From assembly GCA_035717485.1 (NCBI GenBank), contig DASTIQ010000044.1:3791-67790 (forward strand): DNA of 64,000 bases. The letters run 5' to 3'. Within the stretch, counting starts at the first letter, position 1, and every line of letters starts with the position of its first letter. Under the pieces are notes generated by a model that was given only the letters and a program-made list of their open reading frames with translations, searched no databases and was not told the origin of the DNA. The stretch comes from Thermoanaerobaculia bacterium. Lineage in GTDB: Bacteria; Acidobacteriota; Thermoanaerobaculia; UBA5066; DATFVB01. Made by a program: the position numbers and the translations under genes. This document shows positions 1-21,334 of the stretch, piece after piece.

Positions 1-854
1 TCGTACGGCGCCGGCCTTCGAGAAGGATCTCGTCGTGGGCCGCGGAACCGAAACCGCGGGAGGCTTCGATCGCGGAGCCGAACTCCACGGCCTTGACGGC
101 GGGAATCGAGAGGATCGCGCGTCCGATCCGCCCGTCGAGCTTCCGGTCCCACGCGACGTACGAGCCGAGTCCCGGAGGAACGTTCGCGGCGCCGATCAGG
201 ATCGATCCGCCGAGCGTTTCGCCCTTCGCTTTCGCTTCGTCGATCGCCGCGACCATCTTCTTCTCGGCGGCCCGATCCAGGGCGCGGAGCGGGGAGGAAT
301 CGTCGACCCGTTCGAGGGAAGCAAACGTCCGGGGTACGTCGCCTTCGACGGCACCGAGCGACAGGACGCCGCTCGCGATCCGGATGCCGCATTCGGAGAG
401 GAGCATCCGGCAGACCGCGCCGGCCGCCACCCGGGCGGCGGTCTCGCGCGCCGACGCGCGCTCGAGGACGTTCCGCAGGTCGTCGGCGCCGAACTTCTGC
501 GCGCCGGCGAGGTCGGCGTGTCCTGGGCGCGGCCGGCGGACGCGGCGGGAGGCGGCGGCTTCGGGATCGACCTCCCACGGGTCCATCACCGCTTTCCAGT
601 TGGCGAAATCCCGGTTCTCGATCCGGAAAGCGACCGGAGAGCCGAGCGTCACCCCTCCGCGGACACCGCCGGTGATCTCGACCGCGTCGGTCTCGATCTT
701 CATTCGCCCGCCGCGGCCGTATCCATGCTGCCGGCGCGACATGTCGGACCGGAGGAGTTCGCGGTCGATCGTCAGGCCGGCCGGTATCCCCTCGAGAATC
801 GCGCTCAGCGCGGGTCCGTGGGACTCGCCGGCGGTCGTCAGGCGCAACGTCATC
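1..854 (-). CDS. aroC: chorismate synthase, partial (C-terminal end runs off the window start)
   Basis: Minus-strand translation from ATG at 854-852 reads MTLRLTTAGESHGPALSAILEGIPAGL..., the canonical chorismate synthase N-terminus. It is absent from the ORF track because it runs off the edge. Plus-strand ORFs 35..1849 and 93..869 are antisense artefacts. Confidence 0.85.
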
Positions 855-914
855 GCGCGGAGAGTCTGACCGATCCTTTTTCAAAAGACAAAGAAACAGG
901 AATAGGATTTCCGT

Positions 915-2249
915 TTGACGATCATGCTTTCGACGGCGGCCGGAGGCGCGCTCCTCTCCCGGTTCACCGCGGCGCGGAAGCGCACCGAGGACCTCTTCTC
1001 GTTCATCCGCGACGAGGCGTTCCTCGCGCGCCCCATTCCTCTCCGGCACCCGATCGTGTTCTACCGCGGACACCTGCCCGCCTTCGCGGTCAACACCCTC
1101 CTGAAGAGAGCGCTCGGCCGGCCGGGGATCCGCGCCGACTTCGAGACGCTCTTCGAACGCGGCATCGACCCCGCCGACGCCGCCACCGCCGAGAAGGTGT
1201 CGATCGCCCGATGGCCGGAGCGGTCCGAGATCGAGGCGTACCTCCGGGAGGCCGGCGAGCGGCTTTCGGCGGCGTTCGAGGCCATCGACGCGGGGGAAGT
1301 CGCGGACGTCGATTTCGCGCGCGAGGCCGCGGCGATGTGCATCGAGCACGAGGAGATGCACCAGGAGACCCTCCTCTACATCTTTCACCGGCTCGATTTC
1401 TCGATGAAGTGCCCGCCGGAGCGTTCGCCACACGCGCCGCTCGGGGCCGGACCGGCTCCGGAAACGGTCCGCGTTCCGGCGGGAATCGCGACGCTCGGTG
1501 CCGAACGCGGCGGGATCCCGTTCGGATGGGACAACGAGTTCCCGAAGCTCGCCGTCGACGTGCCGGCCTTCGAGATCGACCGGAACGACGTGACCAACGG
1601 CGAGTACCTCGAATTCGTCGATGCCAGCGGCTACGGGAACGCGCGCTGGTGGGACCATGCCGCCCGCGCGTGGATCTCGGGCGGGAAGATCGCGCATCCT
1701 CTCTTCTGGGAGCGGGACGGAGGGCGCTGGAAGTGGCGAACGATGTTCGAGGCCGTCGAGCTTCCGCTCGCGTGGCCGGTCTACGTCAGCCACGCCGAAG
1801 CGTCGGCGTTCGCCCGCTGGCGCGGGAGACGGCTGCCGACGGAGGCTGAGATCCATCGGGCCGCGTACGGGACGTCTTCGGGCGAGGAGCGATCGTTCCC
1901 GTGGGGAGAGGACCCGCCCGATTCCTCTCGCGCGAACTTCGGGATGTTCCGGTACGATCCCGTTCCCGTCGGAAGCTTTCCCGCCGGCGAGAGCTTCTGG
2001 GGCGTGCGCGACCTCGTGGGGAACGGCTGGGAGTGGACGTCGACGCCGTTTTCCGGCTTTCCGGGCTTCCGGGCGAGCCCGCTCTATCCCGGCTATTCGG
2101 CCGATTTCTTCGACGGCGCGCACTACGTGATGAAGGGGGGATCGCCCGCGACGGCGCCTTCGATGCTTCGCCGGAGTTTCCGGAACTGGTTTCAACCGCG
2201 CTACCCGTATCCGTACGCCACGTTCCGCTGCGCCCGGGACGCGGTGTGA
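915..2249 (+). CDS. egtB: ergothioneine biosynthesis sulfoxide synthase EgtB-like (DinB_2 N-domain plus FGE-sulfatase C-domain)
   Basis: 444 aa. HEEMHQETLLY two-His iron motif sits in a DinB-like N-terminal half. C-terminal half has FGE-like signatures (GNGWEWT, YVMKGGS). Immediately followed by an EgtD-like methyltransferase. Confidence 0.75.
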   Translation: MTIMLSTAAGGALLSRFTAARKRTEDLFSFIRDEAFLARPIPLRHPIVFYRGHLPAFAVNTLLKRALGRPGIRADFETLFERGIDPADAATAEKVSIARWPERSEIEAYLREAGERLSAAFEAIDAGEVADVDFAREAAAMCIEHEEMHQETLLYIFHRLDFSMKCPPERSPHAPLGAGPAPETVRVPAGIATLGAERGGIPFGWDNEFPKLAVDVPAFEIDRNDVTNGEYLEFVDASGYGNARWWDHAARAWISGGKIAHPLFWERDGGRWKWRTMFEAVELPLAWPVYVSHAEASAFARWRGRRLPTEAEIHRAAYGTSSGEERSFPWGEDPPDSSRANFGMFRYDPVPVGSFPAGESFWGVRDLVGNGWEWTSTPFSGFPGFRASPLYPGYSADFFDGAHYVMKGGSPATAPSMLRRSFRNWFQPRYPYPYATFRCARDAV

Positions 2250-3199
2250 GCTCGGCGGCGACGCTTTCCGCGTTCGCGCTGGACGTCGCACGCGATCTCG
2301 CCCTGACGCCGCGCCAGCTCCAGTCCAAGTACCTCTACGATCGGCTCGGAAGCCGGCTCTTCGAGGCGATCTGCCGGCTGCCCTGGTACACGATCACCCG
2401 CGCGGAGCTCGGTCTTCTCTCGCGGCACGCCGACGAGATCGCCGCGGAGCTCCCCGATCCGCTGACGCTGACCGAGCTCGGCCCCGGAGACGGGGAGAAG
2501 ATCGCCCTGCTCGCGGCCGCGCTCGTCCGGGAGCGGGCGGCTCTCGCGACGCATCTGATCGACATCTCGCAGTCCGCGCTCGACCAGACGGAGCGGCGGC
2601 TCGGCCGGTACGAAGGCGTCTCCGTGGTCGGGCACCGCGCGTCCTACGAGGAAGGGCTGCGGCGCGTCGCCCGCGAGCGCAACGGCGGCGGGCTCCTCGT
2701 CCTCTTCCTGGGATCGAACCTCGGCAACTTCGACCGCGGCGCGGCGGCCGATTTCCTGCGCGCGATCCGGGCGACGCTCCGCCCGGGCGACGCGCTCCTC
2801 CTCGGCGCGGATCTCGTCAAGCCGGAAGCGGATCTGCTCCTCGCCTACGACGATCCCCTCGGCATCACCGCCGCGTTCGACAAGAACGTCCTCCTCCGGA
2901 TCAACCGGGAGCTCGGCGGGGACTTCGACCTCGCGTCCTTCACCCACCGCGCGGTCTTCGATCCGGCCGAATCCCGGGTCGAAATGCGGCTCGTCTCGCT
3001 TCGCGACCAGGACGTCTCGATTCCCGCGGCCGGAATCCAGGTGCGGTTCGCCGAGGGCGATTTCATCTGGACGGAGAGCTCGTACAAGTACACGCCCGCG
3101 GACCTGACACGGCTCGTCGAGGGCGCGGGATTCGCCTGCCGCCGGCAGTGGATCGACCCCGTGGCTCAATTCGCGCTCGCGCTCTTCTTCGCGGGGTGA
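2246..3199 (+). CDS. egtD: histidine N-alpha-methyltransferase EgtD-like (SAM-dependent)
   Basis: GTG at 2246 overlaps the egtB stop (GTGTGA) and translates VSSAATLSAF.... It contains LTELGPGDGEKIALL (EgtD ELGxGxxxK motif) and the DFL/ESSYKYTPADL C-terminal region. The track ORF 1901..3199 begins with a spurious upstream extension. Confidence 0.75.
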   Translation: MSSAATLSAFALDVARDLALTPRQLQSKYLYDRLGSRLFEAICRLPWYTITRAELGLLSRHADEIAAELPDPLTLTELGPGDGEKIALLAAALVRERAALATHLIDISQSALDQTERRLGRYEGVSVVGHRASYEEGLRRVARERNGGGLLVLFLGSNLGNFDRGAAADFLRAIRATLRPGDALLLGADLVKPEADLLLAYDDPLGITAAFDKNVLLRINRELGGDFDLASFTHRAVFDPAESRVEMRLVSLRDQDVSIPAAGIQVRFAEGDFIWTESSYKYTPADLTRLVEGAGFACRRQWIDPVAQFALALFFAG

Positions 3200-3248
3200 T
3201 CCCGGCAGGGCCGGAACGCGGCTAAGATTCCGCGAGACCGACGAGCGC

Positions 3249-3365
3249 ATGCTGACTGTGGGAACCCGCCTCGCACCTGGCGATCCGCCTTCGCTCCTTC
3301 GGAGCCGGAAGCCTCGCCGAAGCCTTGGCGAAGGCGGGTTCGGCGCGACGACGGGTTTGCCATGA
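3249..3365 (+). other. 38-codon leader ORF (MLTVGTRLAPGDPPSLLRSRKPRRSLGEGGFGATTGLP) resembling a decayed kinase 5-prime end; its TGA overlaps the kinase-1 ATG (ATGA)
   Basis: ATG at 3249, stop 3363-3365 overlapping ATG 3362. Contains GC-rich inverted repeat CCGCCTTCGC (3285-3294) / GCGAAGGCGG (3328-3337). A homologous element precedes kinase 4. Confidence 0.4.
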
Positions 3366-5755
3366 CGCTCCCGGCCGGCGACAGACTCGGACCGTACGAG
3401 ATCATCTCGCTCCTGGGTTCAGGGGGCATGGGAGAAGTCTACCGGGCGCGCGACACCCGGCTGGGCCGGACGGTCGCGCTCAAGATCCTCCCCGAAGCGG
3501 TCGCCGCCGACCCGGAACGCGTGCGGCGATTCGAAATGGAGGCGCGGTCGGCCTCGGCCCTGGCCGATCCCCGCATCGTCACCGTTTTCGACGTGGGCGC
3601 CGAGCGGGGCATCCACTTCATCGCGACCGAGCTCGTCGAGGGTTCGGACCTCCGACATCTCCTCGAGGGCGGTCCCGTCCCTCCCGCGAGAGTGATCGAA
3701 ATCGCCGCGCAGATCGCCGAGGGACTCGCCGCCGCACACGAGCAGGGAATCGTGCATCGAGACCTGAAGCCCGAGAACGTCCTGATCAACCGGTCGGGCG
3801 CCGTCAAGATCGCCGATTTCGGCCTCGCGAAGCAGACGGATCGGTCCTCGGGCGATCTCTCGCAGATGGCGACGGCGGCAGCGGATTCGACGGCCACCGG
3901 CATCGTGATGGGAACGGTCGCCTACATGTCGCCGGAGCAGGCTCGCGGCGCGAGAGTCGACTTCCGGTCCGACCAGTTCTCGCTCGGACTGATCCTCTAC
4001 GAGATGGCGGCGGGAAGGCGGGCGTTCGCCCGTGGCAATCCCGCCGACACGCTCTCCGCGATCCTCAGGGACGATCCGCCCCCGCTCGCGTCCGCCTCTC
4101 CGGGGATGTCGGAGCCTTTCGCGAGGATCGTCCACCGATGCCTCGAAAAGGACCCGGAGCGGCGGTACGGCTCGACGAGCGACCTCGCCCACGACCTGAA
4201 AGGGCTCGTCGCTTCCTCTCCGTCGACCGTGGCGGCGAAGACGTCGCCGCCCCTTCGGAAATTCGTCATCCCGCTCGCCCTCGCCCTCGCCGCCGCCGCG
4301 CTCGCGGCGTTCCTTTTCCTGCGGCATCCGAAGCCGGTGTCGGAACCGATCAATTCCCTCGCGATCCTGCCCTTCGTCAGCTCGAGCGGTAAGGCGGACA
4401 TGGAATTCCTGACCGACGGGATCACGGAGAGCCTGATCAACAAGGTGTCGCAGGTCTCCGGCCTGCGGGTGATCTCTCGCACGTCGGCGTTCCACTACAA
4501 GGGGAGGGAAATCGACCCCGCGAAAGTCGCGAGGGAGCTGGACGTTCGGGCGATCCTGACCGGGCACGTGGCGGCGGTGGGAGACTCCCTCTCCGTCGGC
4601 GCCGAGCTCGTGGACGCGCGCGACGGGCGGCACCTCTGGGGAGAGCAGTACAACCGGAAGATCTCGGACGTCTTCGCGATGCAGAGCGAGATCGCGTCGG
4701 TGATCGCAACCTCGCTTCGCGGCCCACTGACGGGACAGGAGCAGGGTCGGATCGAAAAGCGCCCGACGCGCAACCTCGCCGCCTACCAGGAATATCTGAA
4801 GGGGAAATATTTCTTCGGCCGCAGCAACCCGGGCGATCTCGAAAAGGCCCGGGCCGCTTTCGAGGAGGCCGTGTCGCTCGACCCGGATTTCGCCCTCGCC
4901 CACGTCGGCATCTCGGGCTGTTACGGGATCGAAGGGTCCGCGAGCTACCTCAACCCCACGGAGGCATGGCCGAAGTCCCGTGAGCACGCCGAGCGGGCCA
5001 TTGCCCTCGACGCGTCCCTGCCCGACGCGCACACGGCACTCGCCGCCGTCTATCTGAACCACGACTGGGACTGGGCGGCCGCCGAGAGAGAGTTGAAGCG
5101 CGCGATGACGCTCGGGCCGGTCGACCTGTCGCTCGCCGAGCCGAACGACCTTTTTTCCTTCTACCTGGCGGCCATGGGCCGTCTCGATGAGGCCGTCGCC
5201 GCGGAGAAGACGGCCCAGAAGACGGATCCTCTTTCTCCCTTCCTCGCGGCGGACCTCGCTCAGGAGTACTACTACGCGAGGAAATTCGACGCCGCGATCC
5301 GGGAGGCGCGCCGTGCCCTCGAGCTCCAGCCCGATTCCGTCTTCGGGTTGACGGCATTGGGCCTGTCGTTCGTCATGGAGGGGAAGTCCGAGGCGGGGAT
5401 CGCGTCGCTCCAATCCGCGGTCGAGCGGTCGGGGGGAGAGTCGTTCAATCTCGGTAACCTCGGGTGGGCATACGGGCGCGCCGGACGGATCGCCGACGCG
5501 AAGGAAGTCCTGCGCCGAATGGAGGTGTCGTCTCGGGAGCGCTACGTCGCGCCGTTCGACCGCGCAATGGTCGAGATCGGCATGGGGAACGCGGACGCCG
5601 CGTTCGCCGGGCTCGACCGTGCGGTCGAGGAGCGCAATGCCTGGCTGATCTTCCTCAACGTGGAGCCGATGTTCGACCCGATCCGCGCCGATCCGCGCTT
5701 CGCGAAGGTCGTCGCGCGCGTCGGCCTGCCTCCCCCGAAGGCGAGGACCTCGTGA
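3362..5755 (+). CDS. Ser/Thr protein kinase with TM segment and C-terminal TolB-N-like plus TPR sensor region (paralog 1)
   Basis: GxGxxG loop (LGSGGMGEVYRARD), VALK, HRDLKPENVLI, DFGLAK and SPEQ motifs. A hydrophobic segment (FVIPLALALAAAALAAFLF) is followed by a TPR-like C-terminus. Confidence 0.9.
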   Translation: MTLPAGDRLGPYEIISLLGSGGMGEVYRARDTRLGRTVALKILPEAVAADPERVRRFEMEARSASALADPRIVTVFDVGAERGIHFIATELVEGSDLRHLLEGGPVPPARVIEIAAQIAEGLAAAHEQGIVHRDLKPENVLINRSGAVKIADFGLAKQTDRSSGDLSQMATAAADSTATGIVMGTVAYMSPEQARGARVDFRSDQFSLGLILYEMAAGRRAFARGNPADTLSAILRDDPPPLASASPGMSEPFARIVHRCLEKDPERRYGSTSDLAHDLKGLVASSPSTVAAKTSPPLRKFVIPLALALAAAALAAFLFLRHPKPVSEPINSLAILPFVSSSGKADMEFLTDGITESLINKVSQVSGLRVISRTSAFHYKGREIDPAKVARELDVRAILTGHVAAVGDSLSVGAELVDARDGRHLWGEQYNRKISDVFAMQSEIASVIATSLRGPLTGQEQGRIEKRPTRNLAAYQEYLKGKYFFGRSNPGDLEKARAAFEEAVSLDPDFALAHVGISGCYGIEGSASYLNPTEAWPKSREHAERAIALDASLPDAHTALAAVYLNHDWDWAAAERELKRAMTLGPVDLSLAEPNDLFSFYLAAMGRLDEAVAAEKTAQKTDPLSPFLAADLAQEYYYARKFDAAIREARRALELQPDSVFGLTALGLSFVMEGKSEAGIASLQSAVERSGGESFNLGNLGWAYGRAGRIADAKEVLRRMEVSSRERYVAPFDRAMVEIGMGNADAAFAGLDRAVEERNAWLIFLNVEPMFDPIRADPRFAKVVARVGLPPPKARTS

Positions 5756-8154
5756 CGCTGTCGACGGGCGTCAGGCTCGGTCCCTACGAGATCCTTTCTT
5801 CCCTGGGCGCCGGCGGCATGGGAGAGGTCTATCGGGCGCGCGACACGCGGCTGGGCCGGACGGTCGCGCTCAAGATCCTCCCGGAAGCAGTCGCAGGCGA
5901 CCCGGAACGCGTGCGCCGATTCGAAATGGAGGCGCGGTCGGCGTCGGCCATGGCGGACCCGCACATCGTCACCGTTTTCGATGTCGGCACCGAGCGCGGC
6001 ATCCCTTTCATCGCGACCGAGCTCGTCGAGGGTTCGGACCTTCGACATCTCCTCGAGGACGGCCCGATCCCTCCCGCGAGAGTGACCGACATCGCCGCGC
6101 AGATCGCCGAAGGACTCGCCGCCGCGCACGAGGGGGGGGTCGTGCATCGGGACCTGAAGCCCGAAAACGTCCTGATCAACCGGTCGGGGGTGGTCAAGAT
6201 CGCGGACTTCGGTCTCGCGAAACAGACGGAATCCTCGGGCGATCTCTCGAGAATGGTGACCGCGGCGGCGGATTCGACCGCGACCGGCATCGTCATGGGT
6301 ACGGTCGCCTACATGTCGCCGGAGCAGGCGCGCGGCGCGAAAGTCGACTTCCGGTCCGACCAGTTCTCGCTGGGACTGATCCTCTACGAGATGGCGGCGG
6401 GAAGGCGCGCGTTCGCCCGCGGCAATCCCGCCGACACGCTCTCCGCGATCCTCAGGGACGATCCGCGCCCGCTCGCGTGCGCCTCACCGGGGATGTCGGA
6501 GCCCTTCGCGAGGATCGTTCACCGATGCCTCGAAAAGGATCCGGAGCGGCGGTACGGCTCGACGCGCGACCTCGTCCACGACCTGAAGGCGGCGGGACAC
6601 GACGCACGCACGCCGTCCGTCCCGGTGGCGGCGCCCGGAGCGACGCCCGCCGCGCGGCGGAATCGGATGATCGCGGCCGCGGTCGTCGCGGCGGCGCTCG
6701 CGGCCGGAGCGTTCTTCCTCCTGCGGAGACGCGCTTCCGCCCCGGCCGGGATCGACTCCCTCGCGATCCTTCCCTTCGAGAACTCCAGCGGGAAGCCGGA
6801 CACGGAGTTCCTGAGCGACGGGATCACGGAGAGCCTGATCAACAAGGTTTCGCAGGTCTCCGGCCTCCGGGTGATCTCGCGGGCCTCGTCGTTCCACTAC
6901 AAGGGGCGGGAGATCGACCTCGAGAAGGTCGGAAAGGAGCTGAACGTCCGCGCGGTCCTCACGGGCCATGTCCTCGCGGTGGGCGATTCGCTTTCCGTCG
7001 GCGCGGAGCTCGTCGACGCGCAGGACGGGCGGCACCTCTGGGGAGACCAGTACCGCCGGAAGATGTCCGACATCTTTTCGATGCAGAGCGAGATCGCTTC
7101 CGAGATCGCCACGGCGCTTCGCGGGAGGTTGACGGGGGAGGAAAAGGGACGTCTTCAGAGGAGACCGACGGGGGACCCCGAAGCCTATCAGGCGTACCTG
7201 AAAGGCAAATATCTCCTGAATCGCGTCGGCCCGGAAGAATTCGACAGAGCGAGAGAAGCGTTCGAAGACGCGACCCGCCGCGATCCGAAGTTCGCTCTCG
7301 CCTTCGTCGGCATCTCCGTGACCTACGCGGTGCAGGGCTTCAACGGTTTCCGCGATCCGGCCGAGTCCTGGAGGAAGTCCCGGGAGAGCGCGCAACGGGC
7401 GATCGAGCTCGACGGCCAGCTGCCGGACGGGCACGTTGCGCTGGCGGCAGTCCTCCTGAACCGGGACTGGGACTGGACGAGGGCCGAAAGCGAGCTCACG
7501 CAGGCGATCGCTCTCGAGCCCGCCGACATATCCTGGACGGTGCCCGAGGACCAGTATTCGTTCTACCTCGAGGTCATGGGCCGCTTCGATGAAGCCATCG
7601 CGGTGATGAAGAAGGCCGAGAAATTTGACCCGCTCTCCGCGAATCTTGCGTCCGATCTGGCACAGGCTTACTACTTTGCGAGGAGATACGACCTTGCGGC
7701 CGCGGAAGCCCGCCGGGGGATCGAGCTCGATCCCCGCTCGCTGCTTGTGAACTGGGCGCTCGGTCAGATCCTGACGGCGCAGGGAGACCATGCCGGCGCC
7801 GTCCGAGCCCTGGAGTCATGCGTCGAGCCTTCGGGCGGATCCCCGCAGTCTCTCGGGCTCCTCGGCTGGGGATACGGGCGCGCGGGTCGAAAGACAGATG
7901 CGGAACGCATCCTCCGCCGGCTGGAGGAACTCTCCCGAAGCCGTTACGTCGAGCCGATCGATTTCGCCCTCACGCACATCGGCCTCGGAAACCGGGACGA
8001 GGCCTTCGCGTATCTCGACAAGGCCGTCACCGAGCGCAACGGCTGGCTGATCTACCTCAATGCCGATCCGATGTTCGACCCGATTCGGACGGATCCGCGA
8101 TTCGGGAAGATCGTCGCGCGCGTCGGCCTGCCGGCCTCGGGGAAAACGCCGTGA
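5752..8154 (+). CDS. Ser/Thr protein kinase with TM segment and C-terminal TPR-like region (paralog 2)
   Basis: GTG 5752 overlaps the upstream stop (GTGA). Translation VTLSTGVRLGPYEILSSLGAGGMGEVYRARD... has the same motif set. The track ORF 5464..8154 has a spurious N-terminal extension. Confidence 0.9.
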   Translation: MTLSTGVRLGPYEILSSLGAGGMGEVYRARDTRLGRTVALKILPEAVAGDPERVRRFEMEARSASAMADPHIVTVFDVGTERGIPFIATELVEGSDLRHLLEDGPIPPARVTDIAAQIAEGLAAAHEGGVVHRDLKPENVLINRSGVVKIADFGLAKQTESSGDLSRMVTAAADSTATGIVMGTVAYMSPEQARGAKVDFRSDQFSLGLILYEMAAGRRAFARGNPADTLSAILRDDPRPLACASPGMSEPFARIVHRCLEKDPERRYGSTRDLVHDLKAAGHDARTPSVPVAAPGATPAARRNRMIAAAVVAAALAAGAFFLLRRRASAPAGIDSLAILPFENSSGKPDTEFLSDGITESLINKVSQVSGLRVISRASSFHYKGREIDLEKVGKELNVRAVLTGHVLAVGDSLSVGAELVDAQDGRHLWGDQYRRKMSDIFSMQSEIASEIATALRGRLTGEEKGRLQRRPTGDPEAYQAYLKGKYLLNRVGPEEFDRAREAFEDATRRDPKFALAFVGISVTYAVQGFNGFRDPAESWRKSRESAQRAIELDGQLPDGHVALAAVLLNRDWDWTRAESELTQAIALEPADISWTVPEDQYSFYLEVMGRFDEAIAVMKKAEKFDPLSANLASDLAQAYYFARRYDLAAAEARRGIELDPRSLLVNWALGQILTAQGDHAGAVRALESCVEPSGGSPQSLGLLGWGYGRAGRKTDAERILRRLEELSRSRYVEPIDFALTHIGLGNRDEAFAYLDKAVTERNGWLIYLNADPMFDPIRTDPRFGKIVARVGLPASGKTP

Positions 8155-10817
8155 CGCTGGCCTCGGGGACCCGCCTCGGGCCCTACGAAATCCTGTCTCC
8201 GCTGGGCGCCGGGGGGATGGGGGAGGTGTACCGCGCCCGCGACACGCGTCTCGGGCGGGAGGTGGCGGTCAAGATACTTCCGGAGGATCTCGCGAACGAC
8301 GCGGAGAGGATTTCGCGTTTCGAGCGCGAAGCGCGGTCGGCTTCGGCACTGTCTCACGCGCACGTCGTTTCGGTATTCGACGTCGGCCGGGAGAAAGACC
8401 GCTTCTACATCGTCACGGAAGTCGTTGCGGGAGGGAGCCTCCGGGATCTCCTCGATCGCGGTCCGCTGCCGTTCCGGCGAGCGCTCGATCTCGCCGTTCA
8501 GATCGCTTCGGGGCTCGCGGAGGCCCACGAGAGCGGGATCGTGCATCGGGACCTGAAGCCCGAGAACATCCTGCTCACGAAGTCGGGCGATGCGAAGATC
8601 GCGGATTTCGGCCTGGCGAAGCTCGTGGAGACGGAAGGGGCGGACCTCTCTCAGCTTCCGACCTCGGACGGCCTGAAGACCTCCGACGGCCTGGTGATGG
8701 GGACGGTCGCGTACATGTCGCCGGAGCAGGCGAGCGGGCGTGCGGTGGATTTTCGGTCGGATCAATTCGCGTTCGGCTCGATTCTCTACGAGATGCTCGC
8801 CGGGAAGCCGCCTTTCCGGCGAGCGTCGCCCGGCGAGACGATGGCCGCGGTCATCCGCGACGAGCCCGATCCGCCGGGGGCCGGAGTTCCGCCGCAGCTC
8901 TTCTGGGTCGTCGAACGGTGCCTTTCCAAGGAGCCCGCCGACCGTTACGGGTCGACGCGGGACCTCGCGCGCGAGCTCGCGTTGCTGCGGCAGCATCTTT
9001 CCGAGGTCATGAGCGGCCCGGCCGCCGCCCCGGCACCAAGCCCGATTATCGGTCGACGACGCGACGTCATTCCCTGGGCGATTGCCGGCGTGCTGCTCCT
9101 CGGCGTCGTTGTGCTCGTCGCTCGCCGGGGATCTCACTCCCCGCCCGACGCCGGCCCGATCCGCTTCTCCGTTCCGCCCCCGGCAAACGGCGCCTTCTCG
9201 TTCTTCGTGGAGGACTCTTTTCTCGCCGTCTCCCCCGACGGGTCGCGGCTCGCGTACGTCGCGTCCGATCCGGAAGGCGGCCAGCGGATCTTTCTGCGGC
9301 GGCTGTCAGACGCCAACGCCCGGCCGATTCCGGGGACCGAAGCCGCCGACTCGCTGTTCTTTTCTCCCGATGGCCGTTCCATCGCTTTCTTCGCCGAAGC
9401 CAAGCTGAAGCGCGTCGAGCTCTCCGGGGGCGCGGCCGTCCCGATCTGCGACCTTCCGCTCATCGGCCGGTACTGGTCGGGGACCTGGGGCAGCGACGGC
9501 GACATCCTGTTTGCCGGAGTTACGAGGGGGCGAGGGATCTTCCACGTTTCGGCGTCGGGCGGCGCGCCAGCCAATTTGATTCCGGTCGATCTCTCGCGCG
9601 GCGAGGCACGCATCGGCTGGCCCTGGTTCCTGCCGGATGGAAGGCGGTTTCTCTACCTGCTCCGCTATGCCGATGGTCATGGGAGCCTCATGCTGGCGGA
9701 GCCGGGAAAAAAGCCGCGTCCCGTCATGCCGATGCTATCGGCCGTGCAGTACGTCGACCCCGGTTATCTGATCTTCGTGAAGGACGGAGCCCTTCTCGGA
9801 CAGCGCTTCGATTCGGAGAGCGGCCGGGTCACCGGCGAGCCCTTCTCGATCGCCGAGCAGGTTCGTTACTTCCTCACGACGGGGGGCGCCGCCTTCGCCG
9901 TTTCGCGGACCGGCACCCTCGCGTATCAGTCTCAGGGGGACGTGAGCCAACTGGCCTGGTTCGACCGAACCGGCCGGGAGTTGGGCTCTGTGGGTCCGCA
10001 CGGGAGGTACGTGACGGTCTCGATCTCTTCCGACGGCCGGCGGGCTCTCTTCGATCGGGCGAGGCCGGGGGTGGGAACGTGGGACGTCTGGTCACTGGAC
10101 CTCGAGCGTGGTACCGAGACTCCCGTCGTTGCCGCCCCGGAAACCGATGTCTTTCCCATCTGGTTGCCCGACGGAAAGAGCATCGCCTTTTCGGCCGACC
10201 GCGGCGAGGCGGCGACGCTCTTTCGAAAGGACCTCGCGACGGGGAGAGAAGAGAAGCTTGTAGCGAACGCTCCGAGCGAAGAATTCCAGATCGCGCAGGA
10301 CGTCTCGCCCGATGGCCGGTCTCTGGTCTACATGGAGGCGACCCAGCATGGTTGGTTCGATCTCTGGACGTACCCGCTCGACGGCGGCGGAAGGCCGGTC
10401 CCTCTCCTCAGGGCGCCATTCCCCAAGAGCGAAGCGCGCTTCTCGCCCGACGGCCGGTACGTCGCGATGATCACCGCCGAGTCAGGCCGACCGGACGTTT
10501 ACGTGACCCCTTATCCCGGGCCCGGAGAGAGAATCCGTGTCTCGACCGGAGGCGCGCGAGCTCTGCGCTGGAGTCGCGACGGAGAGCTTCTCTTCGTCTC
10601 GGGCGACGATCGCTTGATGTCGATACCGATTCGAACCGCTCCTTCCCTGCAGATCGGGACGCCGACGGAGCTCTTCGCCTTGAAAGGGAAATGGCCCTGG
10701 CTCGACTTCGACGTTTCCAAAGATGGAAAACGTTTTCTCGCCATCGTTCCCGAAGTCGTCGCCGACGAGCTCCCGCTGAACGTCGTCGTCAACTGGAAAC
10801 CGGGTGTGGCCGAATGA
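8151..10817 (+). CDS. Ser/Thr protein kinase with TM segment and C-terminal TolB-like (PD40) beta-propeller (paralog 3)
   Basis: GTG 8151 overlaps the kinase-2 stop (GTGA). Translation [31 protein letters not shown].... The C-terminal region has [10 protein letters not shown] / [10 protein letters not shown] / [10 protein letters not shown] repeats. Confidence 0.9.
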   Translation: [888 protein letters not shown]

Positions 10818-10900
10818 CACTTGCCACAGGTTCTCGACTCGGCCCATACGAGATCCTCGGACCGCATCCCGTCTCGATCGCGCCTCGGCGTGCCTCATGA
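10814..10900 (+). pseudogene. 28-codon relic of a kinase N-terminus ([28 protein letters not shown]); its ATG overlaps the kinase-3 stop (ATGA)
   Basis: The first 15 codons match the paralog N-termini, then the frame leaves the kinase sequence. Codon usage is lower-GC than the neighbours. Confidence 0.5.
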
Positions 10901-10980
10901 TCATCGCTGGCGAGGAGAACGGCGAACGCCGGATATCCTCGCCGCGATAAGATCCCGCGAAGCTTCGAAGGAGGTTGGAA

Positions 10981-12567
10981 GTGAAACGAGTCGCGGCGGC
11001 ATGTCTGGTGGCGGGCTTCCTGGGATTCGGCGCGAGCGCGCAGGAGAAGCCGGCGGAATCGCCGAAACGGGAGCCGGCTCGGAGCGAGCCGGGGCGCAGC
11101 GAGACGCCTCGGGACGAGACGCCGAAGCGGACCCCCACGGAACCGCCGAAGGCCGAGCAGTCCGTCACCTCGCATTCGATCGTGATCGGCGGGGCGACCG
11201 TCGCTTACACCGCCACCGCGGGAACCTTCGTCGTTCGAAACGAGAAAGAGGAGCCCGTGGCGAACGTCGGATACACCGCCTATGTCCGGCGCGGCGGCGA
11301 TCCCTCGTCGCGCCCCATCACGTTCGCCTACAACGGCGGTCCGGGCTCCTCCTCGGTGTGGCTGCACATGGGAGCGCTCGGTCCGCGCCGCGTCGTCGTG
11401 ACGGACGCGGGCTTCACCCCGCCCCCCCCGTATCGCGTCGTCGACAACGCGGAGAGCATCATCGACCGGAGCGATCTCGTGATGATCGATCCCGTCGGGA
11501 CCGGTCTCTCGCGGGCGGCGGGAGAGGCGAAGGACAAGGATTTCTGGGGAACCGACCCCGACATCGAATCGGTCTCGAACTTCATCAAGGAGTGGGTGAC
11601 CGAGAACGGCCGATGGAACTCCCCGAAGTACCTCCTCGGCGAGAGCTACGGCACGACCCGCTCGGCGGGAATCGTCGACCGGCTCCAGAGCCAGGGAATG
11701 GCGTTCAACGGCGTGATTCTCGTCTCGGTGGCGCTCGATCTGGAAGCGATCTTCAACGCGCCGGGGAACGACCGGCCCTATCCGCTCTTCCTTCCGACGT
11801 ACGCCGCGGTCTCCTGGTACCACAAGGCGCTCCCCAACCGGCCGGCGAAGCTCGAGCCGTTCCTCGACGAGGTGCGCGCCTGGGCCACCGGCCCGTATGC
11901 CGCCGCGCTGATGAAAGGCGACACGATCGGAGACGCCGAGCGCGACGCCGTCGCCCGCAAGCTCCACGAATACACGGGACTCCCGGAGGATTACGTCAAG
12001 CGGTCGAACCTCCGGATCGACGAGGCGGCCTTCACGCAGGAGCTGCTCCGGGATCGGGGGGAGACCGTCGGCCGTCTGGACGCGCGCTTCACCGGCCCCA
12101 CCCTCGACGCGATCGGCCGAGACGCCGAGTACGATCCGCAGAGCGCGGCGATCACCGCGGCCTATACCGCGGCCTTCCTCGACTACTACCACCGGGATCT
12201 CGCCTTCGGAAAGGGAAAGACCTACATCATCACCAACTACGGGCTCTTCCCGCAGTGGGATTTCAAGCACAAGGCGCCCGGTGCGCGTTTCCCGTCCCCC
12301 TTCACGAATACCGGCCTCGACCTCGCGCATGCGCTGACCGTCAATCCGAACCTGCGCGTGCTCGTGCTGAACGGGTACTTCGATCTCGCGACGCCGTTCC
12401 TCGCGACCGAGGAGATGATGTCCCACCTCCTGCTCGCCAAGGACCTGCGGCCGCACGTGGAAATGAAGTACTACGCCGCGGGCCACATGATGTACGTCAA
12501 CGAGGACGCGCTCAAGGCGATGAAGACCGACGTCGCGGCGTTCATGGATCGAACGAGCCGGCGCTAG
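10981..12567 (+). CDS. secreted peptidase S10 family serine carboxypeptidase-like protein
   Basis: GGAGG at 10969-10973 precedes GTG 10981 (alternative start TTG 10975). Signal-peptide-like N-terminus and the LLGESYGT active-site serine context. About 530 aa. Confidence 0.65.
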   Translation: MKRVAAACLVAGFLGFGASAQEKPAESPKREPARSEPGRSETPRDETPKRTPTEPPKAEQSVTSHSIVIGGATVAYTATAGTFVVRNEKEEPVANVGYTAYVRRGGDPSSRPITFAYNGGPGSSSVWLHMGALGPRRVVVTDAGFTPPPPYRVVDNAESIIDRSDLVMIDPVGTGLSRAAGEAKDKDFWGTDPDIESVSNFIKEWVTENGRWNSPKYLLGESYGTTRSAGIVDRLQSQGMAFNGVILVSVALDLEAIFNAPGNDRPYPLFLPTYAAVSWYHKALPNRPAKLEPFLDEVRAWATGPYAAALMKGDTIGDAERDAVARKLHEYTGLPEDYVKRSNLRIDEAAFTQELLRDRGETVGRLDARFTGPTLDAIGRDAEYDPQSAAITAAYTAAFLDYYHRDLAFGKGKTYIITNYGLFPQWDFKHKAPGARFPSPFTNTGLDLAHALTVNPNLRVLVLNGYFDLATPFLATEEMMSHLLLAKDLRPHVEMKYYAAGHMMYVNEDALKAMKTDVAAFMDRTSRR

Positions 12568-12592
12568 GAGTCGTCCGGCCGGCGTCGGCTAT

Positions 12593-12610
12593 CATCGGGT
12601 CGACCCGATG
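12593..12610. promoter_or_regulatory. perfect 18-bp palindrome CATCGGGTCGACCCGATG between the peptidase stop and the leader-B start codon
   Basis: Identical to its own reverse complement. The right arm contains ATG 12608 of leader ORF B. Could act as a terminator or operator. Confidence 0.35.
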
Positions 12611-12781
12611 AATCTGGCCACGGGAACCCGTCTCCGCCCCGGCGATCCGCCCTCGCTCGCGACGGCGAGCCGTCAGGCGCGCCGAAGCGCCGGCGAGGGC
12701 GGGTACGGCGCGACGCGCCCGCCTTCGCCCCGCCTTCGCCAAGGCTTCGGAGGGCGACGGCGGACTTCGGGTGGGCGATGA
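12608..12781 (+). other. 57-codon leader ORF (MNLATGTRLRPGDPPSLATASRQARRSAGEGGYGATRPPSPRLRQGFGGRRRTSGGR), homologous to leader A; its TGA overlaps the kinase-4 ATG
   Basis: Shares M.L.TGTRL.PGDPPSL and GEGG[FY]GAT with leader A. Contains GGCGAGGGCGG (12692-12702), tandem CCGCCTTCGCC x2 (12719-12740) and GGCGACGGCGG (12753-12763), which could form alternative hairpins. Confidence 0.4.
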
Positions 12782-15477
12782 GTCTCGCCGCCGGAACCCG
12801 CCTCGGTCCTTACGAAATCGTTTCCGCCCTGGGCGCCGGCGGCATGGGAGAGGTGTACCGGGCCCGCGATACCCGCCTTGGCCGCGACGTCGCGATCAAG
12901 GTCCTCCCCGAAGCGCTCGCCGACGACCCGGAGCGCGTCGCGCGTTTCGAAAGGGAGGCGCGCTCGGCCTCCGCCCTTTCGCACGCGCACGCGGTGTCGG
13001 TCTTCGACGTCGGAAGGATCGGCGACCGCCTCTATCTCGTCACCGAGATCGTCGAGGGGGGCAGTCTTCGGGACGCGATCGACCGGGGTCCCGTTCCGCT
13101 CCGCCGGGCGATCGACCTGGCCGCGCAGATCGCGTCCGGGCTCGCCGCGGCGCACGAGAGCGGGGTCGTCCACCGGGACCTCAAGCCCGAGAACGTGCTC
13201 ATCGCGCGGACCGGCGAGGCGAAGATCGCCGACTTCGGGCTCGCGAAGCTGACCGAAACGGCGGGCGACTCCGACTCGCACCTGCCGACGTCGGACGGCT
13301 TGAGCACGTCGGCCGGGCTCGTGATGGGAACGGTGGCGTACATGTCTCCGGAGCAGGCCAGCGGAAGGAAGGTCGACTTCCGTTCCGACCAGTTCGCCTT
13401 CGGCGCGATCGTCTGGGAAATGCTCACGGGGCGGCCCTGCTTCCGGCGCGCTTCGGCGGCCGAGACGCTGTCGGCGATCATGCGCGACGAGCCGGAGCCG
13501 GTGCGCGGCGTGAACTCCGCCGTTCCGCCGCCCCTCGCGTGGATCATCGACCGATGCCTCGCGAAGGAGCCGACGGGGCGCTACGCGTCGACCCGGGATC
13601 TCGCCAGCGAGATCGTGACCGTGAGAGACCACCTCTCGGACCTCTCCGCGGGCTCCGGGGCCGCCGCGATCCGGGAGGGGCCGGGGAGCCGCCGGAAACT
13701 TCGCGCCGGGGCAATCGCGGCGGGCGCGGCGCTCCTCGGGGCGGCCGCGGTGCTCGGAGTACGCTTCGGCCGGCGTCCGGCTTCGCCGGCCCTCCCGGCG
13801 GTGCGGTTCTCGCTCCCACCCCCCTTGCCTTCGCTCTTCTACTCGAGGTTCGACGCGATCGCGCTCGCGATGTCGCCCGACGGCACGCGACTCGCGTTCA
13901 TCGGCGACCGGACCGCCTCCGCGCGGGAGGTCGCTCCGGCGGCCGAGCTGTCGACGCAGATCTACCTGCGGTCGCTCTCGGATCTCGACCCGAAGCCGGT
14001 GCCCGGGACGGACCGCGCGACCTCCATTTTCTGGTCGCCGGACGGGCGCGCAATCGGATTCTTCGCCGAGGGACAACTGAAACGAGAAGAGCTCGGCGGG
14101 GAATCGCCGGTGACCGTCTGCGCGCTCCCGCCCGGCAGGCTGATCACGGGGACGTGGGGAGCCGGCACGATCCTCTTCGGCTCGACTTTCGAGGGGATCA
14201 TCTACCGCGTGCCCTCCGACGGCGGCGCGCCGGCGGTCATCGTCCGCCCCGACCCGGCGCGCGGCGAGACCCGCATGATGTGGCCGCATTTCCTTCCCGA
14301 CGGCCGGTCGTTTCTCTATCTCGCCGTGCACCGCAACAGCGCGGGGACCCTGATGCTCGGCTCGATCGACGGCAAACCGCCTCGCGCCGTCGGCGAGATG
14401 GCGTCCCGCGTCGAATGGACCGCGCCCGGAGATCTCGTCTTCGCCGCGGACGGGGCGTTGTTCGCCCGGCCGTTCGACGCGAAGGCGGCTCGGTTCACCG
14501 GACCGCCCCGGCCGCTCGCGCCGTCGGTTTATTCCTTTTTCACGAGCAAGTGGGCCGGATTCACGGCCTCGAAGAACGGAAGTTTCGCGTACCAGCCCCG
14601 GGGAAACGTGAATCGCCTCACGTGGTTCGACCGCGCCGGCCGGAACGTGGGAGAGATCGGCTCGTCCGCGGCCGGGGAGATAATCGACGTCGCGATCTCG
14701 CCGGACGGACGGCGTGCCGCATTCGACCGGAGCGGGCTCAGTCTCGGGACGTACGACGTCTGGCAGATCGACCTCGAGCGCAGCGCGGAGACGCGCGTGA
14801 CGTCGGACCCGAACACGGAGTTCGATCCCGTGTGGCTGCCGGACCAGTCGCATCTGGTCTATTCGGTCGTCCGCGACTACCTGCCGCAGCTCGTCCGGCG
14901 CGACCTCGCCGGCGGACCCGAGGAGCCGCTGCTCCCTCCCGGGACTTTCCAGGAGGCCCTGGACGTGTCGCGCGACGGCCGTCTCCTCTTCTCGCAGAGC
15001 GATGCGAAGGGCGTGTTCGGCATCTGGATGCTCCCGCCCGGGCTCGCAGCGACGCCCTCTCCGATCGTCGTTTCGCGTTACCAGGCGGAGATCGGCCGTT
15101 TCTCGCCGGACGGCCGGTTCCTCGCCTTCCTCTCGAACGAATCGGGCGCGGGGGACGCCGCTTACGTTCAGCCGCTCGGCGCGCCCGGCGAGAAGGTCCG
15201 TGTCTCGCCGGGGGCGGCGATGCTCCTCCGCTGGAGCCGCGACGGGAAGGAGATCTTCTACACGACGCCCGACGGCCATCTCGTCGCGGTTCCGGTCGAG
15301 ACGTCGCCGGCCCTCCGCGTGGGGGACCCCGCGACGCTCTTCGCGCTTCCGGCGAAAGGCTGGCGCGCCTTCGACGTGTCGCCGGACGGCCGGTTCCTCG
15401 CCGCGGTGCCGACCGTGAGCTATGCCACGGAGCCGATCTCCGTGGTGGTCAGCGGTACCGGCTCACTGCCGGAATAG
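12778..15477 (+). CDS. Ser/Thr protein kinase with TM segment and C-terminal TolB-like beta-propeller (paralog 4)
   Basis: [31 protein letters not shown]..., [17 protein letters not shown]. The C-terminal region has SPDGR repeats. Confidence 0.9.
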   Translation: [899 protein letters not shown]

Positions 15478-19854: not shown

Positions 19855-19948
19855 GTTCCGCGCGGAGCGCGGCAGTCGGGAGTTCCGAGTCTTCGGGTCG
19901 AAAGTCGGGTGCCTCGCGGCGAAAACGAGTCGCGAGTCCCGAGTCGGA

Positions 19949-21331: not shown

Positions 21332-21334
21332 GGC

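What the first reader, a model, noticed from the sequence alone, without database searches (positions are those of the whole stretch)
3249..12781. Conserved kinase-derived leader ORFs with ATGA overlap and GC-rich alternative hairpins ahead of kinase operons
Leader A (3249-3365) and leader B (12608-12781) both begin like the kinase N-terminus (M.L.TGTRL) but then share their own conserved peptide (PGDPPSL ... GEGG[FY]GAT). Both terminate with a TGA overlapping the ATG of the downstream kinase. At RNA level, A carries CCGCCTTCGC/GCGAAGGCGG arms 33 nt apart. B carries GGCGAGGGCGG, a tandem CCGCCTTCGCC x2 and GGCGACGGCGG, which can form two mutually exclusive hairpins. An 18-bp perfect palindrome overlaps the leader-B start codon. 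This looks like a recurring translational-coupling or attenuation-like leader specific to this kinase family, or a fossil of kinase 5-prime duplication maintained by selection. Kinases 2 and 3 lack it and are instead GTGA-coupled.
Basis: seen in the sequence. Interest (0 to 1): 0.65.

Follow-up and report, generated by a model that had tools for sequence, protein, structure and literature searches.

The report
Old kinase start stranded by repeat
Two short "leader" reading frames ahead of protein-kinase genes are the genes' original start codons, cut off from the gene body by an inserted GC-rich hairpin repeat. They now end exactly on a second, working start codon, so they probably serve only to hand ribosomes on to the kinase.

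Summary
Leader A (3249-3365) and leader B (12608-12781) share about 100 nt. Both end in ATGA on the kinase ATG, and both carry the described hairpins.

Syntenic loci from related Thermoanaerobaculia metagenome assemblies change the interpretation.
- The leader ATGs sit where insert-free orthologues have their kinase start codon, behind the same rare -10-like box.
- The shared "peptide" (DPPSL...GEGG[FY]GAT) is the translation of a REP/REPIN-like hairpin repeat. Its unit is 36-39 nt and occurs as an inverted doublet, a tandem array of 2-4 copies, or a singleton.
- The repeat also occurs away from kinases. It varies between strains that carry an identical kinase and shows no coding signature.
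- The long and alternative hairpins are not conserved, and most alleles fold no better than shuffled sequence. An attenuator or a conserved leader peptide is therefore not supported.
- One feature is conserved. In all eight distinct alleles the old start lies 86-200 nt upstream of the kinase start, always 2 mod 3. The relic frame therefore stops at +1 or +4 of the kinase start.

This fits selection for termination-reinitiation coupling. I read it as a new variant of known kinds, of moderate interest.

The parts
3223..3228 (+). -10-like box TAAGAT, 20 nt upstream of the relic-A ATG
   Evidence: TA[AT]N[AT]T occurs only 12 times on both strands of the 69% GC window. Three of these sit just upstream of relic A, the S10 peptidase gene and relic B. 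The box is shared with the insert-free orthologue L013.
3249..3281 (+). Relic A: the ancestral 5' end (11 codons) of the first kinase after the methyltransferase gene
   Evidence: It aligns with the real kinase starts of L013 (ATGCTGACGCCCGGAACG...) and L019, behind the same upstream sequence.
3249..3365 (+). Leader ORF A (38 codons): relic plus read-through of the repeat, with its TGA overlapping the kinase 1 ATG
3282..3349 (+). REPIN-like inverted doublet of the hairpin repeat unit (units 3282-3313 on + and 3308-3340 on -), plus the unit tail TCGGCGCGAC
   Evidence: Model R1 hits both strands. The arms are 3285-3294 and 3328-3337. The segment is similar to the metagenome doublets L004 and L003, z = 11-16.
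3362..5755 (+). Kinase 1 (Pkinase + TPR) with its present start and a second copy of the N-terminus, MTLPAGDRLGPYEI
   Evidence: Pfam. The first 90 nt are closest to a K4-type kinase and the rest is closest to kinase 2.
5752..8154 (+). Kinase 2, coupled to kinase 1 through a GTGA overlap, with no leader
8151..10817 (+). Kinase 3, coupled to kinase 2 through a GTGA overlap, with no leader
10814..10900 (+). Separate 28-codon kinase 5' relic (MTLATGSRLGPYEIL...), ATGA-coupled to the kinase 3 stop, with no kinase behind it
   Evidence: L016 has a 96-codon version at the same place.
12590..12595 (+). -10-like box TATCAT, 12 nt upstream of the relic-B ATG
   Evidence: It is conserved in L012, L013, L016, L020 and L023, and reads TATATT in L017.
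12592..12611 (.). 20-bp perfect palindrome covering the relic-B ATG
   Evidence: It is identical in L016, reduced to 6-bp arms in L013 and L023, and absent in L012, L017 and L020.
12608..12643 (+). Relic B: the ancestral 5' end (12 codons) of the kinase downstream of the S10 peptidase gene
   Evidence: It aligns with the real kinase start of the insert-free orthologue L012.
12608..12781 (+). Leader ORF B (57 codons), with its TGA overlapping the kinase 4 ATG
12644..12714 (+). REPIN-like inverted doublet (units 12644-12677 on + and 12673-12705 on -) plus the tail ACGGCGCGAC
   Evidence: Relative to copy A the stem carries a compensated T-A to C-G change.
12715..12777 (+). Third, diverged repeat unit ('module 2', R1 hit 12727-12768), running up to the kinase start
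   Evidence: It is homologous to the only unit in the L017 A-site leader. In the predicted fold it pairs with the bases just upstream of the kinase ATG.
12778..15477 (+). Kinase 4 (Pkinase + PD40 beta-propeller), present start MSLAAGTRLGPYEI
   Evidence: P0001, 100% identity.

Best explanation
Each leader is a composite of three pieces.

1. The original promoter-proximal start codon and first 11-12 codons of a Ser/Thr kinase gene (the 'relic').
2. One to four copies of a GC-rich REP/REPIN-like hairpin repeat lying after the relic.
3. A complete kinase gene with its own second copy of the conserved N-terminus (M.L..G.RLGPYEI).

Shown:
- The relic ATG is homologous to the kinase start of insert-free orthologues.
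- The intervening sequence belongs to a dispersed repeat family.
- It is not conserved as a peptide or as a defined structure.

Inferred mechanism:
- Transcription starts a few bases upstream of the relic ATG, from the conserved -10-like box. No Shine-Dalgarno sequence precedes the relic ATG.
- Ribosomes initiate at the relic ATG and translate 29-66 codons through the repeat, melting its hairpins.
- They terminate on a UGA that overlaps the kinase AUG/GUG or lies one codon inside it.
- They then reinitiate on the kinase by termination-reinitiation coupling.

On this reading the only property of the leader under selection is its reading frame.

Inferred origin (less certain):
- A single old event placed the repeat after codon 12. 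One possibility is a deletion that joined an upstream kinase's 5' end to a repeat which normally abuts a TGA stop codon.
- The unit later spread between paralogous kinases by recombination in their conserved 5' ends, and was lost again in some lineages.
For: 1. Synteny. The methyltransferase-kinase and S10 peptidase-kinase junctions of L012, L013 and L019 have no insert. Their kinase ATG aligns with the window's leader ATGs behind the same box.

2. Frame. The distance from relic start to kinase start is 113 (window A), 170 (window B and L016), 122 (L013 and L014), 149 (L015), 86 (L017 B-site), 128 (L017 A-site), 113 (L020) and 200 (L023). Every value is 2 mod 3. The leader stop falls at +1 (ATGA or GTGA) or +4 (ATGTTGA) of the kinase start. 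The alleles differ by length changes of 3, 27, 33, 36/39 and 54 nt and by an independent junction in the L017 A-site. With at least 5 independent events, the chance expectation is about (1/3)^5 = 0.004.

3. Repeat nature. Covariance model R1, built from the 36-39-nt units, hits tandem copies in L013, L015 and L023. It hits both strands (inverted doublets) in window A, window B and metagenome loci L003, L004, L006, L007, L008, L010 and L011. It also hits a singleton directly after a TGA stop in L012. The unit hairpin pairs in 100% of cells and has one compensatory pair. The inserts resemble those dispersed copies (z up to 14) but not kinase heads or tails (z about 0).

4. No peptide selection. 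The coding log-odds over the insert is -0.37 to 0.0 per codon, against +0.50 +/- 0.24 for real coding segments. Window vs L016 shows 2 synonymous and 3 non-synonymous changes in the leader, against 9 and 1 in the first 600 nt of the kinase. L013 and L015 encode the same kinase but differ by a 27-nt replacement in the leader.

5. Promoter position. The rare -10-like boxes lie 8-20 nt upstream of the relic starts, and none lies inside the inserts.

6. Kinase tree. Insert-bearing kinases fall in four kinase clades, and insert-free L012 is nested among insert-bearing K4 orthologues. The first 90 nt are mosaic. This fits spread and loss by recombination.
Against: - There are no expression data. Translation of the relic ORF and dependence of the kinase on it are inferred from frame conservation alone.
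- Unit lengths of 36 and 39 nt keep the frame automatically, so copy-number changes are not independent evidence. The alleles are also phylogenetically related.
- Some alleles have an SD-like AAGGA or GGGGGA 4-9 nt upstream of the kinase start (L017, L020). That could allow independent initiation.
- The strict sigma-70 scan found no promoter. The -10 box assignment rests on the rarity and conservation of AT-rich hexamers.
- How the second N-terminal copy arose is unresolved.
- All loci were reached through kinase homologues, so the repeat's genome-wide copy number and contexts are unknown.
Confidence: 0.65

Rival explanations
1. Neutral scar. The relic and repeat are non-functional debris. The kinase is translated independently from its own start, or from an unrecognised internal promoter, and the frame agreement is due to chance plus shared ancestry.
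For: The insert evolves fast and carries no coding signature. The 36- and 39-nt units preserve frame automatically. SD-like motifs precede the kinase start in L017 and L020. L012 lost or never had the insert with no visible consequence.
Against: All eight distinct alleles share the one frame out of three that puts the stop on the kinase start. They do so despite non-unit length changes of 3, 27, 33 and 54 nt and an independent junction. A start codon is retained at the ancestral position in every allele. No -10-like box lies inside the inserts.
Confidence: 0.22
2. Regulatory leader. Translation of a conserved leader peptide selects between alternative hairpins, as in attenuation or a structure-gated ribosome binding site specific to this kinase family.
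For: Mutually exclusive pairings exist in window B and also in window A. B folds better than shuffles, z = -3.9. The A and B stems differ by a compensated pair. In B the predicted fold sequesters the bases around the kinase start.
Against: The long stem carries two uncompensated changes in L016 and is absent in L013, L015, L017 and L023. Fold z-scores for the other alleles run from -1.0 to +0.5. No terminator-like hairpin with a U-run was found. There is no Rfam match. The leader peptide is not conserved. The same hairpins occur in non-kinase contexts.
Confidence: 0.05
3. Target-specific mobile cassette. The hairpin repeat, together with a replacement kinase 5' end, is a mobile unit that inserts into the conserved GPYE-coding sequence of kinase genes and restores the gene. 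This would resemble integrating elements that carry a copy of the tRNA end they disrupt.
For: The junction TAC|GATCCGCCTTCGC is identical in L013, L023 and L020, which belong to different kinase clades. Insert-bearing kinases lie in four clades. The first 90 nt after the insert have a different closest relative than the rest of the gene. Presence or absence varies among close relatives.
Against: The same pattern follows from homologous recombination among tandem paralogues with near-identical 5' ends. No transposase or integrase was seen nearby. The L017 A-site junction lies at a different codon. The 5' mosaic signal rests on 90-nt windows and is weak except in L013. Dispersed copies of the repeat carry no kinase 5' end.
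Confidence: 0.08

Closest known systems
Translational coupling and restart through overlapping stop/start codons. Examples from my own knowledge: the ATGA/TGATG junctions of trpE-trpD and trpB-trpA, lacI and T4 rIIB restarts after early stops. Short uORF coupling such as the iraD leader is described in PMC5574718, and SD-independent coupling in PMC9955659.
   Same: A short upstream ORF ends on or within a few bases of the start codon of the main gene. The downstream start lacks a strong ribosome binding site of its own in several alleles. The reading frame of the upstream ORF is what is conserved.
   Different: Here the upstream ORF begins with the gene's own former start codon and N-terminal codons, and the rest of it is a repeat element. 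Coupling has not been demonstrated experimentally.
REP, BIME and REPIN elements, including REPs found inside or at the N-terminus of annotated ORFs (Di Nocera et al. 2013, PMC3733652).
   Same: The unit is a short GC-rich imperfect palindrome. It occurs as singletons, inverted doublets and tandem clusters. Copies abut stop codons and copy number varies between strains. That paper notes that many intragenic REPs lie at the ORF N-terminus and that translation may start downstream of them.
   Different: Genome-wide copy number is unknown, and only one dispersed copy was seen in about 240 kb of related loci. The GTAG tag is present only in some units and overlaps the stem. No RAYT transposase was looked for. 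A duplicated gene 5' end flanking the insert is not a described REP feature.
Leader-peptide transcription attenuators (trpL, pheL, ermCL), from my own knowledge.
   Same: A short ORF upstream of the regulated gene overlaps alternative hairpins.
   Different: There is no terminator with a U-run, no regulatory codons, no conserved peptide, and the hairpins are not conserved among orthologous leaders.
Rickettsia palindromic elements and other repeats tolerated inside coding regions (own knowledge; also mentioned in PMC3733652).
   Same: A palindromic repeat lies inside what was a coding region, and the gene remains functional.
   Different: RPEs are translated in frame as part of the host protein. 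Here the insert is out of frame with the kinase, and the gene restarts after it.

Membership tests
Translationally coupled upstream ORF (termination-reinitiation) | The upstream ORF stop overlaps or lies within a few nt of the downstream start codon | tested here: met
   ATGA, GTGA or ATGTTGA in all 8 distinct alleles.
Translationally coupled upstream ORF (termination-reinitiation) | The arrangement (frame) is conserved while the uORF sequence is free to vary | tested here: met
   Distances of 86-200 nt are all 2 mod 3. There is no coding signature, and substitutions are 2 synonymous to 3 non-synonymous.
Translationally coupled upstream ORF (termination-reinitiation) | Translation of the downstream gene depends on translation of the upstream ORF | not testable with these tools
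   This needs reporter fusions or ribosome profiling.
Translationally coupled upstream ORF (termination-reinitiation) | The upstream ORF has its own initiation signals | tested here: inconclusive
   A start codon is retained in every allele, with a rare, conserved -10-like box 8-20 nt upstream. This suggests a very short leader. No SD is present, and the strict promoter scan found nothing.
Leader-peptide transcription attenuator | Intrinsic terminator (GC hairpin plus U-run) that alternates with an antiterminator | tested here: not met
   No terminator-like site in 3100-3450 or 12480-12850. Alternative pairings exist but have no U-run.
Leader-peptide transcription attenuator | Leader peptide and alternative structures conserved among orthologues | tested here: not met
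   The peptides differ widely. The long stem is lost in L013, L015, L017 and L023. Fold z-scores run from -1.0 to +0.5.
REP / REPIN repeat family | Short imperfect palindrome with a conserved stem, kept by compensatory change | tested here: met
   The 5-6-bp stem GCTCC/GGAGC or GCTCGC/GCGAGC pairs in 100% of cells and has one pair changed on both sides.
REP / REPIN repeat family | Occurs as singletons, inverted doublets and clusters | tested here: met
   R1 hits on both strands, overlapping (doublets). Tandem arrays of 2 and 4 units. A singleton in L012.
REP / REPIN repeat family | Many dispersed, mostly extragenic copies per genome | tested here: inconclusive
   Copies occur in unrelated contexts: L012 and L004 directly after TGA, and L003, L006, L010 and L011 with no kinase detected. 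Whole genomes could not be scanned. Only one dispersed copy was found in about 240 kb of related loci.
REP / REPIN repeat family | Terminal GTAG (or CGTC) tag next to the stem (PMC3733652) | tested here: inconclusive
   On the reverse strand some units read GTAG-CTCC..GGAG (L013 unit 1, L023 unit 2). Others read GCAG, GTGG or GAAG. The last G is part of the stem.
REP / REPIN repeat family | Associated RAYT (IS200/IS605-type) transposase in the genome | not tested
   No whole genome was available. The window's ORFs were not screened for Y1 transposases.
Curated cis-regulatory RNA (Rfam) | Match to a covariance model at its gathering score | tested here: not met
   0 matches in the window and in L002-L011. 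Only chance-level hits at E up to 10.
Conserved small protein | Homologues in protein databases, purifying selection, codon usage of the host | tested here: not met
   No homologue was found, although the search only reaches proteins that share three exact 5-residue words. No Pfam match. No coding signature. 3 of 5 substitutions are non-synonymous.

The most novel reading that the evidence does not exclude
The hairpin-repeat array, together with a replacement kinase 5' end, is a cassette that specifically colonises the conserved GPYE-coding start of Ser/Thr kinase genes in Thermoanaerobaculia. Its variable copy number (1, 2 or 4 units, always a multiple of 3 nt) would act as a heritable dial, setting how efficiently ribosomes are passed from the old start to the kinase. 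That would make it a contingency-type expression switch for signalling kinases.
Probability: 0.1. Interest if true: 0.7.

Novelty: new variant of a known kind. Interest (0 to 1): 0.4.

Why it matters
- It gives a worked example of how a gene can survive a repeat insertion just behind its start codon. The old start is kept as a short upstream frame whose only constrained property is where it stops.
- It is a caution for annotation and for small-protein discovery. An apparently conserved leader peptide can be nothing more than a translated REP-like repeat.
- If coupling is confirmed, repeat copy number would be a simple natural knob on kinase expression.
- The locus would also give a clean natural system for studying termination-reinitiation on near-leaderless mRNAs in Acidobacteriota.

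Tried and rejected
- **Leader peptide homology.** A search with the leader-B peptide found no candidate, and Pfam found nothing.
- **Rfam.** No match at gathering scores on the window or the metagenome loci. Permissive E-values on both leaders gave only chance-level hits.
- **Genome scan.** A 23-mer from the 3' arm scanned against genome contigs gave one hit, in a Microbacterium MAG. It has no hairpin partner and lies in unrelated sequence, so I treat it as chance.
- **Viral scans.** Two scans of viral contigs, for the junction and for the unit, found nothing.
- **Is the insert the 3' end of a deleted upstream kinase?** If so, the ATGA would be an inherited kinase-kinase junction. Rejected: kinase C-termini and tails show no similarity to the inserts, z about 0.
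- **Is the insert a decayed kinase 5' coding segment?** Rejected: z is about 0 to 2.8 against kinase heads, compared with up to 14-16 against dispersed repeats.
- **In-frame alleles.** I checked whether the longer kinases in the homologue list were fusions of relic, repeat and kinase. Their extensions are unrelated.
- **Own contig.** A look-up of the window's own kinases by exact sequence found nothing on record.
- **ORF 19851-25130 (-).** This 1759-aa ORF is a shadow frame of multihaem cytochrome genes.
Full report
**1. What is in the window**

The window is 69% GC. Kinase 4 is 100% identical to a protein that NCBI annotates in a Thermoanaerobaculia (Acidobacteriota) MAG (P0001).

The gene order, is:
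- a histidine-specific methyltransferase gene, 1901-3199;
- leader A, 3249-3365;
- kinase 1, 3362-5755 (Pkinase + TPR);
- kinase 2, 5752-8154 (GTGA overlap);
- kinase 3, 8151-10817 (GTGA overlap, PD40 propeller);
- a 28-codon kinase 5' fragment, 10814-10900 (ATGA overlap with the kinase 3 stop);
- an S10 peptidase gene, 10975-12567;
- leader B, 12608-12781;
- kinase 4, 12778-15477 (Pkinase + PD40).

**2.

Both TGA stops overlap the kinase ATG.

A and B align in conserved blocks. The two longest blocks occur exactly twice in the window, against 0.00-0.01 expected.

The arms, their 33-nt spacing and the mutually exclusive pairings in B are all present. The palindrome over the leader-B ATG is 20 bp rather than 18.

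Folding is better than shuffled sequence for B (z = -3.9). It is only marginally better for A (z = -1.6 to -1.8).

No Rfam family matches. No protein resembles the leader peptide.

**3. The leader ATGs are the old kinase start codons**

I fetched DNA around kinase 4 homologues of 61-83% identity. This gave syntenic loci from related metagenome assemblies.

Insert-free loci:
- L012 (83% identity) has the S10 peptidase gene, the same TATCAT box, and then the kinase ATG directly (MSLAPGTRLGPYEIL).
- L013 and L019 have the methyltransferase gene, a TAAGAT box and the kinase ATG directly.

In alignments, the window's leader ATGs fall exactly on these kinase start codons.

Insert-bearing loci:
- L016, L013/L014/L015, L017 and L023 carry relic, insert and kinase at the S10 site.
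- L017 carries the arrangement at the methyltransferase site as well.
- L020 (61% identity) carries it at the methyltransferase site.

In L013, L023 and L020 the relic runs through GPY, and the insert begins at the same junction, TAC|GATCCGCCTTCGC.

Kinases in L018, L019, L021 and L022 have no insert.

**4. The 'conserved peptide' is a translated hairpin repeat**

In L023 the insert is four tandem units, 36 + 39 + 36 + 39 nt. TRF reports a 75-nt dimer repeated 2.0 times at 97% identity. L013 and L015 have two units.

I built a covariance model from eight units. It finds these tandem copies. In window A, window B and metagenome loci L003, L004, L006, L007, L008, L010 and L011 it finds overlapping hits on opposite strands. 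The long hairpins of A and B are therefore inverted doublets of the unit, as in REPINs.
- DPPSL is the forward unit read in the leader frame.
- GEGG is the reverse unit.
- [FY]GAT is the unit tail.

A singleton lies directly after the TGA stop of an unrelated gene in L012. The L004 copy also starts within a TGA stop.

tblastn detected no kinase in the metagenome loci.

The inserts resemble these dispersed copies. For L013 and L015, which were not used to design the search pattern, z reaches 14. They do not resemble kinase 5' or 3' ends, z about 0.

The unit's small stem is always paired and switches between GCTCC/GGAGC and GCTCGC/GCGAGC.

**5. Neither the peptide nor the larger structures are conserved**

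- L013, L014 and L015 encode the identical 899-aa kinase, yet L015 differs from the other two by a 27-nt replacement in the leader.
- The window and L016 are about 98% identical from the peptidase gene into the kinase domain. The leader carries 5 changes, 2 synonymous and 3 non-synonymous in its frame. Two of them break the long stem. The first 600 nt of the kinase carry 9 synonymous and 1 non-synonymous change.
- The leader frame over the insert has no coding signature: -0.37 to 0.0 bits per codon, against +0.50 +/- 0.24 for real coding segments.
- The 3' arm of the long hairpin is absent in L013, L015, L017 and L023.
- Fold z-scores for those alleles and for L020 run from -1.0 to +0.5.
- No terminator-like site is present.

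An attenuator or a functional leader peptide is therefore not supported.

**6. What is conserved is the frame**

| Allele | Distance from relic start to kinase start (nt) |
|---|---|
| Window A | 113 |
| Window B and L016 | 170 |
| L013 and L014 | 122 |
| L015 | 149 |
| L017 B-site | 86 |
| L017 A-site | 128 |
| L020 | 113 |
| L023 | 200 |

Every value is 2 mod 3. The relic ORF therefore stops at +1 (ATGA or GTGA) or +4 (ATGTTGA) of the kinase start.

Changes in unit number keep the frame automatically, because units are 36 or 39 nt long. The alleles also differ in other ways:
- a 3-nt difference between the two unit variants;
- a 33-nt difference between the doublet and the single unit;
- a 54-nt extra unit in window B;
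- the 27-nt replacement in L015;
- an independent junction at about codon 21 in the L017 A-site.

Five independent events all preserving the one useful frame has a chance of roughly 0.004.

Every allele keeps ATG or GTG at the ancestral position.

AT-rich -10-like hexamers are rare, 12 on both strands of the window. Three of them lie just upstream of relic A, the peptidase gene and relic B, and none lies inside an insert.

No Shine-Dalgarno sequence precedes the relic starts. The peptidase gene, by contrast, has GAAGGAGG.

**7. Most likely mechanism (inferred)**

- A very short-leadered mRNA starts just upstream of the relic ATG.
- Ribosomes translate the relic and the repeat, opening its hairpins. 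In window B the predicted fold pairs the bases just upstream of the kinase AUG and its first codons with repeat sequence.
- They terminate on the UGA at the kinase start and reinitiate.

A distance of 0 mod 3 would fuse about 30-65 junk residues to the kinase. A distance of 1 mod 3 would send ribosomes across the kinase start in the wrong frame. Only 2 mod 3 gives coupling.

The main rival is a neutral scar with independent kinase initiation. SD-like AAGGA or GGGGGA motifs precede the kinase start in L017 and L020, which leaves this open.

**8. Origin (inferred, unresolved)**

All inserts share homologous 5' and 3' ends. This points to one old event followed by internal deletions and duplications.

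Insert-bearing kinases lie in four kinase clades. Insert-free L012 is nested among insert-bearing K4 orthologues.

Window A shares with window B the derived CCNGGC|GATCC junction. The first 90 nt after the insert have a different closest relative than the rest of the gene, most clearly in L013.

Three other kinase 5' fragments in these loci show that deletions and recombination at kinase 5' ends are common here:
- window 10814-10900;
- a 96-codon version in L016;
- a 12-codon fragment in L013.

Because dispersed copies of the unit abut TGA stops (TGA|TCCGCC, TGA|CCCGCC), one simple route is a deletion joining ...TACGA of an upstream kinase to ...TGA|TCCGCC of a repeat behind its stop codon. 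This is a conjecture.

A target-specific mobile cassette cannot be excluded, but the data do not require it.

**9. Comparison with what is known**

The working principle is ordinary stop/start coupling or restart. Coupled short uORFs are described in PMC5574718, and SD-independent coupling in PMC9955659.

The insert has the anatomy of REP/REPIN elements. Di Nocera et al. (PMC3733652) already report REPs inside ORFs, often at the N-terminus, with translation possibly starting downstream.

Three features appear not to have been described:
- the gene's own former start serving as the start of the upstream frame;
- a duplicated N-terminus behind the repeat;
- comparative evidence that only the frame is maintained.

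REP membership is incomplete. Genome copy number, the GTAG tag and a RAYT gene are untested or inconclusive.

**10. Verdict**

The fossil and coupling readings hold. The conserved peptide, the attenuator and the kinase-family-specific element do not.
- This is a new variant of known kinds, of moderate interest.

Noticed in passing
window 19949-21331 (-) and 21335-25738 (-); repeats 21425-23164: Two adjacent genes in one frame carry 51 CxxCH haem-binding motifs between them, so they are giant multihaem cytochromes. They contain seven 222-nt (74-aa) tandem repeats. The 1759-aa ORF 19851-25130 (-) in the ORF list is a shadow frame: it has no CxxCH motif and no Pfam hit.
   Followed up: partly
window 10814-10900; L016 1306-1596; L013 3626 onwards: Kinase 5' fragments of 28, 96 and about 12 codons are coupled by ATGA or GTGA to the stop of the preceding kinase, with no kinase body behind them. 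They look like remnants of deleted tandem kinase copies.
   Followed up: partly
window about 13450-13550, compared with L016: Identity to the L016 contig drops from about 98% (10975-13450) to about 78% for the rest of kinase 4. This marks a recombination breakpoint inside the kinase gene, after the kinase domain.
   Followed up: no
window 12592-12611: A 20-bp perfect palindrome, TCATCGGGTC/GACCCGATGA, lies between the -10-like box and the relic-B ATG and covers that ATG. It is identical in L016, reduced to 6-bp arms in L013 and L023, and absent in L012, L017 and L020. It could be an operator or an mRNA 5' hairpin, but it is not conserved.
   Followed up: partly
L005 about 410-560; L007 about 3925-4070; L008 about 850-1000 (-): Three soil metagenome contigs share a conserved element of about 140 nt around a hairpin with the same arms (...CCGGTNTCAACCGGATCCGCCTTCGC...GCGAAGGCGGGTCAGGTTCCAAGGGT...CTCTCAATCC...GGGATACCCCTGGCGG). 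The hairpin interiors vary and there is no Rfam match. It may be an undescribed structured RNA or a transposon end.
   Followed up: no
window 3223, 10948, 12590, 17478, 49965, 53034: AT-rich hexamers of the form TA[AT]N[AT]T are very rare in this genome, 12 on both strands of 64 kb. Several sit 10-40 nt upstream of gene starts, so they are likely the -10 boxes of this organism. The kinase promoters leave almost no 5' UTR.
   Followed up: partly
L006 about 880-950; L010 and L011, upstream of their doublets: These three metagenome contigs share a further conserved segment, GGGGACTCGTGGAACTCGTCCTTCCGAGCGTTGTGCC, just upstream of the repeat doublet. L011 has an extra unit at 1316-1349. The repeat may be part of a larger element there.
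   Followed up: no
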